The notes under the pieces: model-generated
The model's database searches: none
What the model was told of the DNA's origin: nothing
Seen by the model: only the letters and a program-made list of their open reading frames with translations
Position numbers and translations under genes: made by a program
Part shown: one piece after another, positions 48,527 through 58,559 of the stretch
How the letters are laid out: every line of letters begins with the position of its first letter
Numbering within the stretch: position 1 is the first letter of the stretch
From: the human T2T-CHM13v2.0 reference genome, Homo sapiens
DNA length: 64,000 nucleotides
Assembly (NCBI RefSeq): GCF_009914755.1
Contig: NC_060936.1
Reading direction: 5' to 3' (one strand)

Positions 48527-48770
48527 CTGAATATCCTTCTCAATAAATCGCTTTCCTGTCTCCAGGGTTGCCTCCAGCTGTTGAAGGAGCAAACGAAGAA
48601 TATCAATCCGGGAGGATACCCCATTCTCGGCAGTCTTCTCCGAGTTCTTTGGCTCCACAGGGTGGTTGAGACTTGGAAGTCCACTTATCAGCCTCAATGT
48701 TAAGGATCGGATTCTTAACCACAAGGTCTCCTCCTCTAAGGAAAGTTTCTTATGTTCTTCAGAAACGTCC
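48527..48770 (-). CDS. NAA25: NAA25 coding exon (DVSEEHKKLSLEEETLWLRIRSLTLRL...FIEKDIQ)
   Basis: AG/GT boundaries, 244 nt, phase consistent. Confidence 0.96.
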
Positions 48771-48800: not shown

Positions 48801-50755
<1,955 letters not shown>

Positions 50756-53193: not shown

Positions 53194-53345
53194 ATATTTG
53201 CTTCAAGTAGAAGGTCTAACAGCATCCGTTCAGTACGGACTTGTGCAAAATGAAGAGAATTATTCAGCCTGTTCCTAAAAGCGATAAACTCTGGGATCTT
53301 CTCAAATGCACCATATTTGTAAGCTTGAATAATATATTCTGAGGT
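53194..53345 (-). CDS. NAA25: NAA25 coding exon (TSEYIIQAYKYGAFEKIPEFIAFRNRL...LLLEAN)
   Basis: AG/GT boundaries, 152 nt; contains the NatB MDM20-like AYKYGAFEKIPEF motif. Confidence 0.96.
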
Positions 53346-54384
53346 CTGAGAAGGAAAGACATCACCTTGGTATAAATAGTTCACAAGTCAGGCAATGTAA
53401 GCAAACCTTGCCAGCCAAAACAAAACACTCAAACTAAAATTAAGTTTTAAATCTAATCTTTAAAGGTCTTGGTCACCAAGTAGAATATTAGCTTTTTAAA
53501 ATGTTTTTCTTCCTTCTTATACTTTAGACAAATGTCTCCTTTACTAATATTACTAATTGTAATAACCAGCTTCTGCCACCATCACATAAGCCTTCTCTTG
53601 GCAGTCATGTCTTTCAATTCAATAGGAACTGAGGTTTTGTTTTGCCACATCAGTCAAAAATTTGGTTAGTGCCATTCTGGAAGGGATGTTACTCCATGTT
53701 TTTCTGCATCTAAGATAAACTGTGTTTCATACAAAGGTTCCAAAAGCACCAGAATAATAGAACCACCTGCCCCCCGCCCCCCCAAATAAAAACCACTCTC
53801 CTTCAGAAAAAGACAGGCTGCTCCTTGGTTTTGCTTATTTCTGAATACTGTATTAGAAACACAGGGCATATGAGCATTACGTCAGGATAGAAGTAAGACA
53901 CCAAACAAAAGACCTGTCAAAATTCATGTCATAATCTATTCTGAGGACAAAGACTTCAAGAACCAAGTTTCTTGTCCATCTACATTACGTAAGACCTCTG
54001 CTGGAAATTTCCTTAAACAAGTATGTGAAGGGAACATTCACCACATGTGCTTTAATTGTAGCTTAATACATATACAGAGATCAAACATTACAGAACAGAG
54101 GCAAGATAAAGAATTCTAAGCAGAAATTCTGGCACAATAGAAGAAAATCTCAGGGAAGAACATTTCATGGGTGTGGGTCTATGCCATCAGGATCAGAAGA
54201 CAGGAGATTACCCCTTTGGGCCAAGGAAACTATTATGCTCAAAGCTGATGTCTGCCCCCAAAAAAGATCCTTTCTAGAAAAAACAGTCTTTTTACACAGC
54301 CTCAGTTAATCAGCTCTGCCCCCATCTCCATTACGTCTGAATAATTTGCCCAGTAGGAAAATAGGCCAATAGTCAACAACATAC

Positions 54385-54513
54385 CCTCTGATATACAGCC
54401 TTGCAGGGTTCATTTCAGGCCGCGGGATTGCGCCACGGGCGCTAATTCAACTGCATTCGATGCGGCTTTTAAACCCCCATGGGACACCTCGGCGAGCTGT
54501 TTGCCTGCAGTAT
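54385..54513 (-). other. Candidate NAA25 poison (PTC-containing) cassette exon
   Basis: Pyrimidine tract ttttcttgtgtccgtccgtctttaatttctccag| and donor AGG|gtatgt; 129 nt; in-frame TAA (54469-71), TAG (54442-44), TGA (54415-17). Confidence 0.7.
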
Positions 54514-55463
54514 CTGGAGAAATTAAAGACGGACGGACACAAGAAAATTAAAAAGATTACTTGTGATCCTGCAGGTTTCAAGAAGGACTACCTGAAAAAG
54601 CTCGAGTATACCTTCTAGCTTGATTAAAGGACAGTGATACACCCTATCAAGAGGAGGCCAGGATACTCTAAACACATATGCCTATCCTATGGCCCCTTGG
54701 CTTAGAAAACACAGCAAGGTTTACTACTATTAGCCCTTGTAATAGGAACTTACAGCTGGGGAAAAAAAAACAGCTGGTTAGGAACACATGATTCAGTAAT
54801 TAATCAAAAAGAAAATATGACTTTAGTAATTCCAATCAAAGTTATAATTACAGTTCCAAAGTATGCTATGATTTAAGGAGGGAACCCAGCCTTACCAAGT
54901 GTAGAGGCAGTTTTAATTTCTAAGTGGTCCGTGGAACACCACTTTATTTAAAAAAAAAAAAAAAAAAGGCAATAGCTTTTCAAAGAGAAAAATAAGGGGC
55001 AACAAAGAGAGTATAGTCTTTAACAAACTAAGAAGGTAGTCACAGTTCTCTGGCTTATCTTTTTTAGATAGTCCTTCTGTAACACTGCAGTAAAGTACCA
55101 TTGCAGAGCTAGACAAGGGCCTGGGATGCAACCACTAGGACCAAGGCTGTGGAAGTAGTACTACGTGAAGAAACAACCCCCTACTGGAACTGCAGGCAAA
55201 ACTGAAAGCCACAGGCACTTTAAAGACTTTTGAATATCAAAGTATGTTGTCCGTACCTATTTTCTACTCATTTATGCACCAATGAGGCTATTTAGATCCC
55301 GAATGGATTCCTGAAATGAACCCTGGTCACTGTAAAAATTAGTGAAATATATGGACATAAAACCCCTGAATAATGACCTTTGTGAATACCTAGAGATTAT
55401 ATTTTCTTTTATTTACTTTTTTTTTTTTTTGAGACAGAGTCTCACTCTGTCATCCAAGAGTGA

Positions 55464-55595
<132 letters not shown>

Positions 55596-58459
55596 TAAAA
55601 TAGAGATTTTAAAGGGAAATTTTTAAGAAGTAAAAACACGTAAGTGACTTTTAAAGATATGAAAATCTAGTGCTTATTTTCATATTTTTAAAAATCTATT
55701 CCAAAGTAAGATGACAACAGAAAATAACCTTTCTAGAAAGAAAATCCCTATGCAGACCTTCCAAATACAACTTTCAATCCCATAGCACAAAACATTACTA
55801 AGCAAAACACTAGATTTTCCATTTAAGTAAAAGTGTCCTGTCAAAGAGCTAGGTGGGAATTGAAATGCATCAGTCACCCAAGGAAAAAGCATCCGGGGAT
55901 CCCAAAAACTACCAAGAATAAAAGATGCATAGTATAGAGCTCTGGATTTGAAGAGAGATATTTCTGATACTCTAAGCACAAGGTTGAACACACACAGTAA
56001 GACACTACAATCATAATCTTTCTTAGCCTTAGATTTCTTTAGGAAACAGTTCACACCACAGTCTCTATCTGGCACTCAACATTAAGGTCAAGCTACATGT
56101 TCCTAGCTGTACCATATTTTTCTTTTTTGGTGGGGGGACAGAGTCTCTCTCGTCACCCAGGCTGGAGTATAATGGTACAATCAGCTCACTGCAACCTCCA
56201 CCTCCCGGGTCAAGCAATTCTCCTGCCTCAGCCTGCCGAGTAGCTGGGATTACAGGCACCTACCACCATGCCTGGCTAATTTTTGTATTTTTAGTAGAGA
56301 TGGGGTTTCACCACGTTGGCCAGGCTGGTCTTGAACTCCTGACCTCAGGTGATCCACCCACCTCGGCCTCCCAGTGCTTGGATTACAAGCGTGAGCCACT
56401 GTGCCCAGCCTGTACTGTATTTTTCTTTTGCCTCTAGGACTCTTCAAGATTATCTCCTGTCAGCAGATTTAATAAGCTCTATCTTCTTAGCGGTAATCAA
56501 AATATATTTCAAGTGTCCTAGTCTCTGATCAATAAAATGCTATAATTTTATCAGGTTCAACATCACATACATTCAGATGAATTAGTCACTTTTGCCACAC
56601 ACAACCATCAGCAAAACATAAAACAAAGATACAAAAAAAACTCTGAGGATGACACATCCCCTCAAATTGCTCCTAGGGGTCTCCTTTGCCTATATTGCAA
56701 CACTTTTGTAATTTTATTTTTAGATTTTCTTTCAAAACAACTCTTCAGACACAATATTTGTGGGAAAAAATTAAAGCCTAATTCTGATGTATATAAAGTA
56801 ATGTGTCTTTATTGACCACATCTTCATGAGTAATACAGTTCTTCTAGAATGCTGCATGATTGAAAGCTAGAGGAAAACCAGCCACCGGGCTGGAATTAAT
56901 CCCTGATTTACTCCCACTACCTCAAAGCTATTTGAGAAACAAACCTTTGAAAAGGAATCTTCAGTAAATCAAATGTTTCTTTCATCTCTCTTATAAATAC
57001 AGAAATGAGGCCATAAATAATGAGATGAGGAAACCAATCCTTTTGATTTTTTTTTTGAGTTAGTGAAACCTCTTGAAAACAGGAGGGCAAGTACAGATAC
57101 TTGAACACACAATGAAAATTCATAGGTTTATAGCTCATCCATGCTAGGTTTTAGAAACCCAACATCCTAGAGATGACCTTCTGACCTCTAAGCCAGGCCA
57201 GCACACCTTCTGAGTAACATGCTCAGATGCTGATACTCATTTTCCTCTCTCCCTGATCAGATGCTGTGCCACAAAATGAGGTCTGAACGGAGATACCAAT
57301 CACTGCAGAGGTTAAGGGGGCCACTTTGGGGAGGGGATACAGGACTAAGAACCAACTAATGGTACACAGCTCATTATCTAAGCACAAGAGGCTGCTTTCC
57401 ACCTGCTTAGAGCTGTCCTTTGCTACTCCAGCCCTCTAGGCCATTCCCTAAAACTTGTCAGAATGTAATTATCATAAACTGAGAACAAACCTATATCCCA
57501 TGTTCAGAAATGCTTCTATTTAATACAATACACCCTTAAAGAATTAGATGGAAGATAGATTAGTCATCCTGTTACAGTAAAACAAAAGGGTTTAAAAAAA
57601 ATCCTCACGAGTGTTTGCCAAGAAGAACCCCAGAAACTAGCTTCCTTGCTAGTTCCTTAATTGCTGGTAGACCATGAGAATGGAAAGCTATGGGCAGATA
57701 GCTGGCACAGCCAACTTCAGGCGATGAGGCTTAGAAGTCTGTGAAAACCAAGTAGGCAGTGACCACCCTGGAGACATTCCTTTTCTTCACATTCATTGTT
57801 GGGCAGTTTTTTATAATTGGTCAACTGAGTACAGACCGTATGGTTTTCCTACAAAAACCTCGGCTTAACCAACAAGTAGAGCCCAAGTCTGCTTGCAGTG
57901 AAAAATATGGTGCAAATCCCATCCTTTCATTATGGCACAGAGAAGCTCTATTTATTGCTACTTTAAAAAACATATTATTCACCTAGGTTTCTCGGAATGC
58001 CTTTTAATTTTCTAAGAAAATACAAGTACATTCACCTTTGGCAAAGAGCACAATGGACATACATTTCAGAGTTAAATAAAAGTAACAGAGAGCAGCTGCT
58101 ATTGCAGGATGTTACACGGCATCCCAGGCTATGAACGCTTATGGACTGTTTCTTATACCCTTGGAAAAGTCTCTTAGAGATTAAAAGCCAGGTCTAAGAG
58201 GACTAACACTTCCTAGTCAGTAAATACCAGTTTTTAAATGCAACTTTCCAAGGATTCTATTAAACACGCCCATTCTAACAAACACAAATAACTCTCTACC
58301 TCTCCCTACCAGCCTTGGACAGTAAGCTTTGGTCTAAGGGCACTTGCTAGTTCAGCATGGTGCACCTTAACATGTGTACTTGTGACATGTGGTGACGTGC
58401 TCCTCAATAGTGTGCAGTCAGCAGACAAGATCACAGTTAAAAAATAGTTTTTCACTTAC

Positions 58460-58559
58460 ATCTTTCTGGTTGGAGTGAAAAAACCTGAGTGCGAAGTTAC
58501 AGGATTGGGACGCAGCAGCATACTGACCTAGAGATTCAGCATATCGGGTCAAAAGATAA
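58460..58559 (-). CDS. NAA25: NAA25 coding exon (YLLTRYAESLGQYAAASQSCNFALRFFHSNQKD)
   Basis: AG/GT boundaries, 100 nt, phase consistent with neighbours, ends phase 0. Confidence 0.96.

What the first reader, a model, noticed from the sequence alone, without database searches (positions are those of the whole stretch)
54394..55334. About 1-kb nested, non-repeat RNA duplex in an NAA25 intron that captures the candidate poison exon
Seen in sequence: a collinear, nested series of reverse complements. Pairs are 54394-98/55330-34 (5 bp), 54404-19/55310-25 (16 bp perfect, CAGGGTTCATTTCAGG), 54423-28/55296-301 (6 bp), 54484-93/55208-18 (10 bp, 4 G.U), 54500-11/55189-200 (12 bp perfect, next to the 3' splice site), 54581-600/55059-78 (18 of 20 Watson-Crick plus one G.U), 54609-29/55018-38 (about 20 bp, two bulges), 54663-69/55008-14, 54692-98/54994-55000, 54727-38/54965-75, 54755-60/54885-90 and 54796-802/54845-51. 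Neither arm resembles Alu or another repeat I recognise. Most non-Watson-Crick positions become G.U pairs only on the minus (NAA25 sense) strand. Inference: a selected long-range pre-mRNA structure regulating the exon, not a neutral inverted duplication. The short inner helices are individually weak; the case rests on the long helices and their order.
Basis: partly seen in the sequence, partly recalled or inferred. Interest (0 to 1): 0.92.

Follow-up and report, generated by a model that had tools for sequence, protein, structure and literature searches.

The report
Single-copy palindrome enclosing NAA25 poison exon
A roughly 940-base, one-of-a-kind inverted repeat in a NAA25 intron can fold back on a stop-codon-carrying alternative exon, and its patchy preservation suggests, without proving, that the pairing is kept to hold that exon out of the mRNA.

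Summary
They are T (54394-54428 / 55296-55334: 5+16+6 bp), B (12 bp perfect), C (32 nt, 81%) and D (21 nt). They are nested, collinear and far beyond chance: the chain of perfect seeds was reached in 0 of 2000 shuffles.

Six of the 12 listed helices are at chance level: the five innermost and the "4 G.U" helix. The claimed sense-strand G.U bias is not supported. Both strands gain the same long-range energy (about -52 vs -51 kcal/mol).

The left outer arm is the annotated 129-nt cassette exon. It has AG/GT splice sites and an in-frame UAA at codon 15, and it is CpG-rich.

No other copy of any island or of the exon interior was found in the T2T genome at the sensitivity available. The ends read TA|CAG...CTG|TA, which hints at a Tc1/mariner-type origin.

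The spacers between islands are as dissimilar as shuffles, while the islands match about 80-100%. Uniform neutral decay cannot produce that. I infer selection on the complementarity, but I could not show it.

Best reading (about 0.48): an ancient palindrome kept as a long-range pre-mRNA duplex that masks the poison exon. No orthologues were reachable, so conservation and covariation are untested. If true, this is a new member of a known kind.

The parts
54385..54513 (-). 129-nt cassette (poison) exon of NAA25. AG at 54514-15 and GT at 54383-84 on the sense strand. It is read in frame 0 and reaches UAA at codon 15 (ILQANSSPRCPMGV*). It has 9 CpG, o/e 0.90, against 0.21 for the whole intron.
   Evidence: The hub annotation lists it under 'exons of other transcripts'. 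I worked out the phase by hand from the hub's coding coordinates: 1191 nt from 53345 to the stop, which is 397 codons.
54394..54428 (-). Island T, 3' arm, lying inside the exon: exon nt 86-91, 95-110 and 116-120. It holds the 16-nt perfect block 54404-54419.
   Evidence: P 0.88-1.0 on both strands; duplex -44.2 kcal/mol sense, -42.5 antisense.
55296..55334 (-). Island T', 5' arm, in the upstream intron. It is the partner of T. The palindrome ends at CTG|TA (55330-55334), mirrored by TA|CAG at 54394-54398.
54500..54511 (-). Island B, 3' arm: exon nt 3-14, directly next to the 3' splice site. 12 nt, perfect.
   Evidence: -19.6 kcal/mol on both strands. In the full-length model P is 0.04 on the sense strand and 0.91 on the antisense strand.
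55189..55200 (-). Island B', 5' arm, partner of B.
   Evidence: these are the only two copies in the window at 1 mismatch or fewer.
54569..54629 (-). Islands C (54569-54600) and D (54609-54629), 3' arm. They sit in the intron just upstream of the exon's polypyrimidine tract (54514-54560).
   Evidence: P 0.80-0.91 on both strands; C+D duplex -55.0 sense, -53.8 antisense.
55018..55090 (-). Islands D' (55018-55038) and C' (55059-55090), 5' arm.
   Evidence: the 20-mer has only these two copies in the window at 3 mismatches or fewer; 0 of 100 shuffles gave two.
54630..55017 (.). Loop of about 390 nt with no arm-to-arm similarity. It holds a pure A18 run at 54950-54967.
   Evidence: (z -0.16).

Best explanation
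An old, single-copy palindromic element lies in NAA25 intron 15. It probably began as a Tc1/mariner-type transposon or a local inverted duplication. Four complementary islands of it have been kept while everything between them has randomised.

Proposed mechanism in the NAA25 pre-mRNA (minus strand):
1. The upstream arm (55334 to 55018) is transcribed first.
2. Islands C'/D' pair with C/D to form an imperfect stem of about 50 bp. The stem closes a loop of about 390 nt and brings T' and B' next to the emerging exon.
3. T' then pairs with exon nt 86-120, ending 9 nt before the 5' splice site. B' can pair with exon nt 3-14, next to the 3' splice site.
4. The polypyrimidine tract and branch region are left in an internal loop between stable helices.
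5. The exon is thus held inside a discontinuous duplex. This hinders exon definition and keeps the stop-containing exon out of the mRNA.
6. Unwinding, or a changed elongation rate, would raise inclusion and send the transcript to nonsense-mediated decay.

Shown: the complementarity, its non-random nested order, its uniqueness in the genome at the sensitivity reached, the exon's stop codon, and predicted pairing of T, C and D on the sense strand.

Inferred: selection on the pairing (from the island/spacer contrast only), formation in cells, and the direction of the effect on splicing.
For: - Nested chain: 0 of 2000 shuffles reach it.
- Long-range energy gain on the sense strand is -52.4 kcal/mol against -25.4+-5.5 in shuffles, reached by 0 of 46.
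- T, C and D pair with P 0.86-1.0 in the sense ensemble.
- Island duplex energies on the sense strand: T -44.2, B -19.6, C -35.0, D -19.9 kcal/mol.
- Island/spacer contrast: identity is 16/16, 12/12, 81% and 76% in the islands, but the spacers have z -0.24, -0.43 and -0.16 against shuffles.
- In a no-indel uniform decay model, runs of 16 and 12 need identity of 0.6 or more (0 of 20000 at 0.5, 77 of 20000 at 0.6, 2296 of 20000 at 0.7). A 71-nt spacer at 0.6 identity or more never fell to z<0 (0 of 40).
- A young neutral transposon copy is unlikely, because no near copy exists. The DNA search found only the locus itself plus a 31-nt A-run. The 24-mer end at 3 mismatches or fewer gave 3 hits including self, against 3 in the control. 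The 20-mer of island C at 2 mismatches or fewer gave 95 against 164 in the control. The exon interior 34-mer, tolerant of CpG decay, found only itself. No extended similarity (E 0.05 or better, outside the A18 run, whose hits were filtered from the listing) appeared in any of the fetched non-own loci.
- The exon has sound splice sites and an in-frame stop, and its CpG o/e is 0.90 in an intron at 0.21. That fits long-term constraint on the exon.
- A NAA25 'exon 17' is tabulated as an NMD/poison exon whose inclusion falls on EBV infection of B cells (PMC8501971, passages seen). I have not verified that it is this exon.
Against: - No orthologue could be examined, so neither conservation nor covariation is shown.
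- Nothing distinguishes the sense strand. Antisense z is -4.67 against -3.58 for sense. Long-range gain is -51.3 against -52.4 kcal/mol. G.U-only substitutions in C and D are 2 sense against 1 antisense (by hand).
- The 12-bp helix next to the 3' splice site is not used in the sense-strand model (P 0.04).
- The TA|CAG...CTG|TA ends fit a transposon. An element born as a mosaic of short inverted motifs would mimic the island/spacer contrast without selection.
- My searches cannot detect an old, diverged repeat family. The DNA search missed even the element's own partner arm. No Dfam/RepeatMasker library was available.
- NAA25 did not occur in the held supplementary text of the catalogue of conserved complementary regions (0 of 3 files, PMC8052449). 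It also did not occur in the held supplement of the cryptic poison exon paper (0 of 1 file, PMC11632617). Long files are stored cut, so this is weak evidence.
Confidence: 0.48

Rival explanations
1. A fossil of a non-autonomous DNA transposon (Tc1/mariner/pogo type) or of a complex inverted duplication. It was mosaic from the start, with terminal and subterminal inverted motifs separated by unrelated spacers, and it is under no selection for pairing. One end happened to be exonised. Any dsRNA it forms is incidental.
For: - The ends read TA|CAG...CTG|TA, and complementarity stops exactly there.
- A CTGCAG-containing motif recurs in islands T, B and C of each arm (by eye), as transposase-binding subterminal repeats do.
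- The palindrome is equally good on both strands.
- In the rest of the window, every stronger nested inverted chain (10 of 10) looks like a pair of dispersed repeats. They have dense, equally spaced seeds, arms shared by several partners, and 6 of 10 have an arm inside a stretch the hub lists as masked.
Against: - No other copy was detected. DNA transposons have been inactive in the primate lineage for tens of millions of years (recalled). A copy young enough to keep 16/16 and 12/12 neutrally should therefore have detectable relatives.
- An old copy should not keep such runs.
- The islands are four different sequences, not four copies of one binding motif.
- No stretch of about 330 nt or more inside 54394-55334 is among the hub's longest masked stretches.
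- CpG retention in the exon arm argues against neutral ageing of that arm.
Confidence: 0.3
2. The islands are conserved for a reason other than RNA pairing. Examples are paired protein-binding sites of an intronic enhancer or silencer acting on double-stranded DNA, or splicing-regulatory motifs duplicated in inverted orientation. On this reading the complementarity is a by-product of shared ancestry plus independent purifying selection on both copies.
For: Strand symmetry. The island/spacer contrast shows constraint of some kind but does not say on what. By eye (sequences), the sense-strand islands carry splice-site-like motifs: UUUCAG|G and CUGCAG in the 5' arm, and CAG|GUAGU and AAG|GUAUAC in C and D.
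Against: Four distinct blocks of 12-32 nt, each kept in the mirror position and in nested order, are longer than typical binding sites. A duplex explains them most simply. RefSeq lists no functional element here (hub table).
Confidence: 0.12
3. The duplex forms and is selected, but it promotes inclusion of the exon, or serves another RNA-level role such as ADAR editing or control of a cryptic 5' splice site in islands C/D, rather than repressing the poison exon.
For: In the sense model the helix next to the 3' splice site (B) is not formed, so the 3' splice site may stay usable. Islands C and D cover 5'-splice-site-like motifs (by eye).
Against: The exon body is paired at nt 86-120 with -44 kcal/mol, close to the 5' splice site. 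No paper joins NAA25 with A-to-I editing (0 papers).
Confidence: 0.08
4. Chance complementarity.
For: The five innermost helices and the 4-G.U helix are at chance level.
Against: 0 of 2000 shuffles reach the chain score. 0 of 100 shuffles give two copies of the 20-mer. 0 of 46 and 0 of 44 shuffles reach the long-range energy gain.
Confidence: 0.01

Closest known systems
Pairs of conserved complementary regions (PCCRs) that control unproductive splicing, e.g. BRD2 exon 3b / BRD3 (PMC10789245), ATE1 (PMC7797038), and the catalogue in PMC8052449. I saw only search listings and the starts of abstracts.
   Same: Intronic and exonic complementary boxes of 10-30 nt, hundreds of nucleotides apart, placed around a regulated, stop-carrying cassette exon. 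Helix energies are well below -15 kcal/mol.
   Different: Conservation, which defines a PCCR, is untested here. This case has four collinear islands making a hairpin that spans about 940 nt, rather than one box pair. One whole arm is the exon itself. NAA25 was not found in the held supplementary text of the catalogue paper.
Inverted Alu pairs (IRAlus) in introns, which form dsRNA and affect splicing, circular RNA formation and editing (recalled).
   Same: An intramolecular long-range duplex formed by an inverted repeat within one intron. Nested collinear seeds, like those found elsewhere in this window.
   Different: Not Alu: the Rfam SRP-like hits lie outside it. It is single-copy. Its seeds are sparse with unequal, unrelated spacers, whereas the repeat pairs show dense, evenly spaced seeds.
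Non-autonomous Tc1/mariner (pogo/Tigger-type) DNA transposon fossils of mammals (recalled features: TA target duplication, inverted ends beginning CAG).
   Same: TA|CAG...CTG|TA at the exact limits of the palindrome.
   Different: No other copy was found. There is no transposase remnant (Pfam, 8 ORF pieces, nothing significant). The inverted similarity reaches 236-317 nt inward in separate islands instead of one terminal repeat.

Membership tests
Long-range pre-mRNA structure regulating a cassette exon (PCCR type) | Two regions in one pre-mRNA with stable complementarity (10 nt or more, about -15 kcal/mol or better) | tested here: met
   16/16, 12/12, 32 nt at 81% and 21 nt at 76%. Sense duplex energies are -44.2, -19.6, -35.0 and -19.9 kcal/mol.
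Long-range pre-mRNA structure regulating a cassette exon (PCCR type) | Both arms evolutionarily conserved across species | not testable with these tools
   No vertebrate genomes are held. Pattern scans of genome contigs and viral contigs gave 0 matches. Only an indirect within-locus proxy exists: the island/spacer contrast.
Long-range pre-mRNA structure regulating a cassette exon (PCCR type) | Compensatory substitutions, or G.U wobble specific to the transcribed strand | tested here: inconclusive
   Covariation could not be tested. G.U-only substitutions in C and D number 2 on the sense strand and 1 on the antisense strand (by hand). Energies are symmetric.
Long-range pre-mRNA structure regulating a cassette exon (PCCR type) | Experimental duplex evidence (RIC-seq/PARIS) or a mutational effect on splicing | not testable with these tools
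   0 papers join NAA25 with intron and 'RNA structure'. The supplements of the RIC-seq paper could not be opened.
Poison (NMD-targeting) cassette exon | Alternative exon with canonical splice sites that brings in an in-frame premature stop upstream of further junctions | tested here: met
   AG/GT sites, UAA at codon 15, and nine coding exons downstream (and the hub table). NMD sensitivity itself was not tested. PMC8501971 lists a NAA25 'exon 17' as NMD/poison, but I have not verified that it is the same exon.
Tc1/mariner-type non-autonomous DNA transposon | TA target-site duplication flanking terminal inverted repeats | tested here: met
   TA at 54394-95 and 55333-34. The ends are CAG.../...CTG. 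Complementarity is lost outside: the 100-nt flanks have z -2.08, meaning less alike than shuffles.
Tc1/mariner-type non-autonomous DNA transposon | Other copies of the family in the genome | tested here: not met
   Only the locus itself was found. In one search the 16-mer at 1 mismatch or fewer gave 139 hits against 40 in the control, and the 26 non-own loci fetched showed no extended similarity to the element. Sensitivity is limited to copies within roughly 10-25% divergence of this one. An old, diverged family would be missed (one search shows how insensitive the DNA mode is).
Tc1/mariner-type non-autonomous DNA transposon | Match to a curated repeat consensus (Dfam/Repbase) | not testable with these tools
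   No repeat library is held, and the window file carries no soft-masking.
Inverted Alu pair | Both arms are Alu (7SL-derived) | tested here: not met
   The Rfam E-value scan of 53300-58500 puts SRP-like hits only at 55429-55584 and 56133-56409, and none in either arm.

The most novel reading that the evidence does not exclude
A single-copy relic of an ancient transposon was taken over whole. Its ends and subterminal islands have been kept for perhaps 100 million years or more as a four-helix clamp that folds the NAA25 poison exon into a duplex. This would give the NatB auxiliary subunit a structure-gated dosage switch, read by helicases or by elongation rate and responsive to cell activation. 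One arm of the transposon became the exon and the other became its silencer.
Probability: 0.3. Interest if true: 0.65.

Novelty: new member of a known kind. Interest (0 to 1): 0.5.

Why it matters
NAA25 is the auxiliary subunit of NatB, which N-terminally acetylates a large share of the proteome. Little appears to be in print about how its level is set: three of my four full-text searches joining NAA25 with splicing and decay terms returned one and the same paper, and the fourth returned none.

If confirmed, a structure that gates a poison exon would offer a concrete handle on NatB dosage, for example through antisense oligonucleotides against the upstream arm. It would also be a clean, non-Alu, single-copy example of an exon lying inside one arm of a long-range duplex.

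If the palindrome proves to be a neutral fossil, the finding is ordinary.

Tried and rejected
- Alu or another multi-copy repeat as the source of the arms: rejected at the sensitivity available.
- tRNA or a known RNA family in the CpG-rich exon: none. ARAGORN found 0 genes. Rfam gave nothing in the element.
- Coding remnant. An 81-codon open frame runs antisense across the exon (54373-54618), and there are other ORF pieces. Pfam at E up to 10 gave only two sub-threshold chance hits in 8 pieces.
- Special local fold of the exon: sense z -1.58 (12 of 200 shuffles as good), antisense z 0.04. Not remarkable.
- Third, competing copies of the islands in the window: none.
- Duplex scan of the exon against the whole intron: energies were inflated by large loops and were not informative.
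- Whole-arm alignment: score 17 against 9.3+-3.4 in shuffles, with one shuffle at 18.5, so it is weak. That is what led me to the island/spacer analysis.
- Searching the genome with a sequence profile of the arms: the tool does not allow it for this genome.
- Orthologues through contaminating host DNA in the bacterial or viral collections: 0 matches.
- Earlier findings of this scan were not open.
- Paper reading closed when I asked for further supplements. The RIC-seq paper (PMC10573301) and the non-conserved long-range structure paper (PMC10691357) may list this locus in supplements I could not see.

Full report
**What is there.**
The + strand of 54394-55334 carries a set of reverse-complementary blocks in nested, collinear order. 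An independent repeat search gave 16/16 (54404-19 / 55310-25), 12/12 (54500-11 / 55189-200), 32 nt at 81% (54569-600 / 55059-90) and 21 nt at 76% (54609-29 / 55018-38).

I group these into four islands:
- T: 5+16+6 bp with two small internal loops, 54394-54428 / 55296-55334.
- B: 12 bp.
- C: 32 nt.
- D: 21 nt.

**Is it more than chance?**
Yes, for the four islands.
- A chain of perfect inverted seeds of 10 nt or more scores 38. This was reached in 0 of 2000 dinucleotide shuffles of 54385-55345, whose maximum was 22.
- The 20-mer core of island C has two copies in the 64-kb window at 3 mismatches or fewer. 0 of 100 shuffles gave two.
- The 961-nt stretch folds better than shuffles on both strands. 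Sense: -279.8 kcal/mol, z -3.58. Antisense: -270.6 kcal/mol, z -4.67. Each used 20 shuffles.
- The excess is entirely long-range. Allowing pairs beyond 150 nt gains -52.4 kcal/mol on the sense strand (shuffles -25.4+-5.5, reached by 0 of 46). It gains -51.3 on the antisense strand (shuffles -27.4+-5.2, reached by 0 of 44). Local folding alone is unremarkable, with z -0.72 and -1.51.

**What is not confirmed.**
- The five innermost helices (54663-69 and inward) have mean pairing probabilities of 0.15 or less on both strands. One reaches 0.31 on the sense strand. The interior shows no arm-to-arm similarity (z -0.16).
- The '10 bp, 4 G.U' helix has P 0.01 on the sense strand.
- The perfect 12-bp helix B is not used in the sense-strand model (P 0.04), although it is on the antisense strand (P 0.91).
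- The claim that non-Watson-Crick positions are G.U on the sense strand only does not hold for the strong islands. Read from the gapped alignment, C and D have 2 such substitutions for the sense strand and 1 for the antisense strand.
- Island duplex energies are nearly equal on the two strands, sense then antisense: T -44.2/-42.5, B -19.6/-19.6, C -35.0/-35.4, D -19.9/-15.6 kcal/mol.

As far as the sequence can tell, this is a DNA-level palindrome. Nothing marks the transcribed strand.

**The exon.**
- The annotated alternative exon 54385-54513 (minus strand) has AG and GT splice sites.
- It is 129 nt long and is entered in frame 0. I derived the phase from the hub's coding coordinates: 1191 nt from 53345 to the stop.
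- It reads ILQANSSPRCPMGV and then UAA. It is therefore a plausible NMD-inducing exon.
- Island B covers exon nt 3-14. Island T covers nt 86-91, 95-110 and 116-120. The whole outer left arm of the palindrome is the exon.
- The exon has 9 CpG (o/e 0.90, GC 56%) in an intron with o/e 0.21. The right arm has o/e 0.21. Such retention points either to constraint or to youth.
- A table in PMC8501971 lists 'NAA25 exon 17' as an NMD/poison exon with lower inclusion after EBV infection of primary B cells (passages seen). I could not verify that the numbering refers to this exon.

**Is it a repeat?**
- The arms are not Alu. Rfam's SRP-like hits lie at 55429-55584 and 56133-56409.
- In the T2T assembly that holds the window, the DNA search returned only the locus itself and a 31-nt A-run.
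- The 16-mer at 1 mismatch or fewer gave 139 hits against 40 for the reversed control. The flanks of the 30 loci fetched, four of which lie at the locus itself, showed no shared sequence with the element.
- The 24-nt right end at 3 mismatches or fewer gave 3 hits including self, against 3 in the control.
- The 20-mer of island C at 2 mismatches or fewer gave 95 hits against 164 in the control.
- A CpG-decay-tolerant 34-mer of the exon interior found only itself.
- A sensitive blastn of the element against all fetched non-own loci gave nothing at E 0.05 or better outside the A18 run, whose hits I filtered from the listing.

The limits of these searches are real. The DNA mode missed even the element's own partner arm. 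An old family whose copies differ from this one by 40-50% would escape the pattern tests. No repeat library was available, and the window file has no soft-masking.

One transposon hallmark is present. The palindrome is bounded by TA|CAG on the left (54394-98) and CTG|TA on the right (55330-34), and complementarity stops there. That is the signature of Tc1/mariner-type elements as I recall it. It is a lead about origin, not a classification.

**The key internal argument.**
- The islands match about 80-100%. The sequences between them are as unlike as shuffles: spacer T-B z -0.24, spacer B-C z -0.43, interior z -0.16.
- In a uniform, indel-free decay model of a 236-nt arm, perfect runs of 16 and 12 occur together in 0 of 20000 trials at 50% identity. 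They occur in 77 of 20000 at 60% and 2296 of 20000 at 70%.
- A 71-nt spacer at 60% identity or more never dropped to z<0 (0 of 40). At 40% it did so in 20% of trials.
- So one neutral rate cannot give both observations.
- A young neutral copy would explain the perfect runs and the CpGs. It would not explain the unrelated spacers or the lack of any relative in the genome.
- An old neutral copy would explain the spacers but not the runs.

Two readings remain:
- (a) An old palindrome with selection that keeps the islands complementary.
- (b) An element that was a mosaic from birth.

The window's own controls fit this picture. All 10 stronger nested chains have dense, evenly spaced seeds, and some arms are shared by several partners. 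Six have an arm in a stretch the hub lists as masked. They are repeat pairs, whereas this locus has sparse seeds with unequal spacers.

**Mechanism I commit to (about 0.48).**
1. In the pre-mRNA the upstream arm is made first.
2. C'/D' pair with C/D (-55 kcal/mol for the joint duplex) and close a loop of about 390 nt.
3. T' then pairs with the 3' part of the exon, up to 9 nt from the 5' splice site. B' may pair with the first 14 nt.
4. The polypyrimidine tract (54514-54560) sits in an internal loop between stable helices.
5. This should hinder exon definition and favour skipping, which gives the productive mRNA.

Only the complementarity and the thermodynamic prediction are shown. Formation in cells, selection and the direction of the effect are inferred.

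**Rivals.**
- A mosaic transposon fossil with no function (0.30).
- Constraint on the islands for a reason other than pairing (0.12).
- A real duplex with another role or the opposite sign (0.08).
- Chance (0.01).

**Comparison with what is known.**
It works like the pairs of conserved complementary regions that control unproductive splicing, such as BRD2/BRD3 and ATE1 (search listing and abstract starts). Membership in that class requires conservation, which I could not test. It is not an inverted Alu pair.

If confirmed it would be a new member of a known kind. Its notable points would be its single-copy, possibly transposon-derived origin and the fact that the exon itself forms one arm.

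No paper in the searched library joins NAA25 with intron and 'RNA structure' (0 papers) or with A-to-I editing (0 papers). The searches joining NAA25 with 'poison exon', 'unproductive splicing' or NMD/cassette exon each found one and the same paper.

**What stays open.**
Repeat annotation is also open because no library was available. Duplex-mapping data are open too: the supplements of PMC10573301 and PMC10691357 could not be opened. The held supplements of PMC8052449 and PMC11632617 did not contain NAA25, but stored files may be cut.

Noticed in passing
window 54385-54513: The cassette exon is a CpG-rich island of sequence (9 CpG, o/e 0.90, GC 56%) in a CpG-poor intron (o/e 0.21). It is dense in short palindromes, seen by eye: CCGCGG, GCGCC-ACG-GGCGC, GCAT-TCG-ATGC, CCCATGGG, CTGCAG. 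Its local fold is not exceptional (sense z -1.58).
   Followed up: partly
window 54373-54618 (+): An 81-codon stop-free frame runs antisense across the whole exon and into island C. The mirrored right arm reads the same 'KDYLKK' in its own frame because of the palindrome. No Pfam match.
   Followed up: partly
window 54950-54967: A pure A18 run inside the loop of the palindrome. It may be the tail of a later retroposed insertion or an expanded microsatellite. It also gives spurious inverted matches with the T-run at 55417-55430.
   Followed up: no
window 55429-55584 and 56133-56409 (-): Alu-like sequences in the same intron, just upstream (in RNA sense) of the palindrome. They show as Rfam Metazoa_SRP hits below the gathering score, plus mir-1268-like hits. 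Both are on the minus strand, so they are not an inverted pair with each other.
   Followed up: no
window 48863-49114 with 49345-49556, 49683-49932 and 50130-50365; also 42978-43184/43631-43836, 21568-21804/22697-22935, 8212-8480/9223-9774: Strong nested inverted-repeat chains (scores 59-142) that look like inverted pairs of dispersed repeats in NAA25, ERP29 and TMEM116 introns. These are potential dsRNA-forming pairs near exons, for example around NAA25 exon 48527-48770.
   Followed up: no
window 54569-54629 (sense strand): Islands C and D carry 5'-splice-site-like motifs on the sense strand (CAG|GUAGU, AAG|GUAUAC). The duplex would cover them. Their partners C'/D' and T'/B' carry 3'-splice-site-like YnCAG motifs. 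Seen by eye in the sequences and not scored.
   Followed up: no
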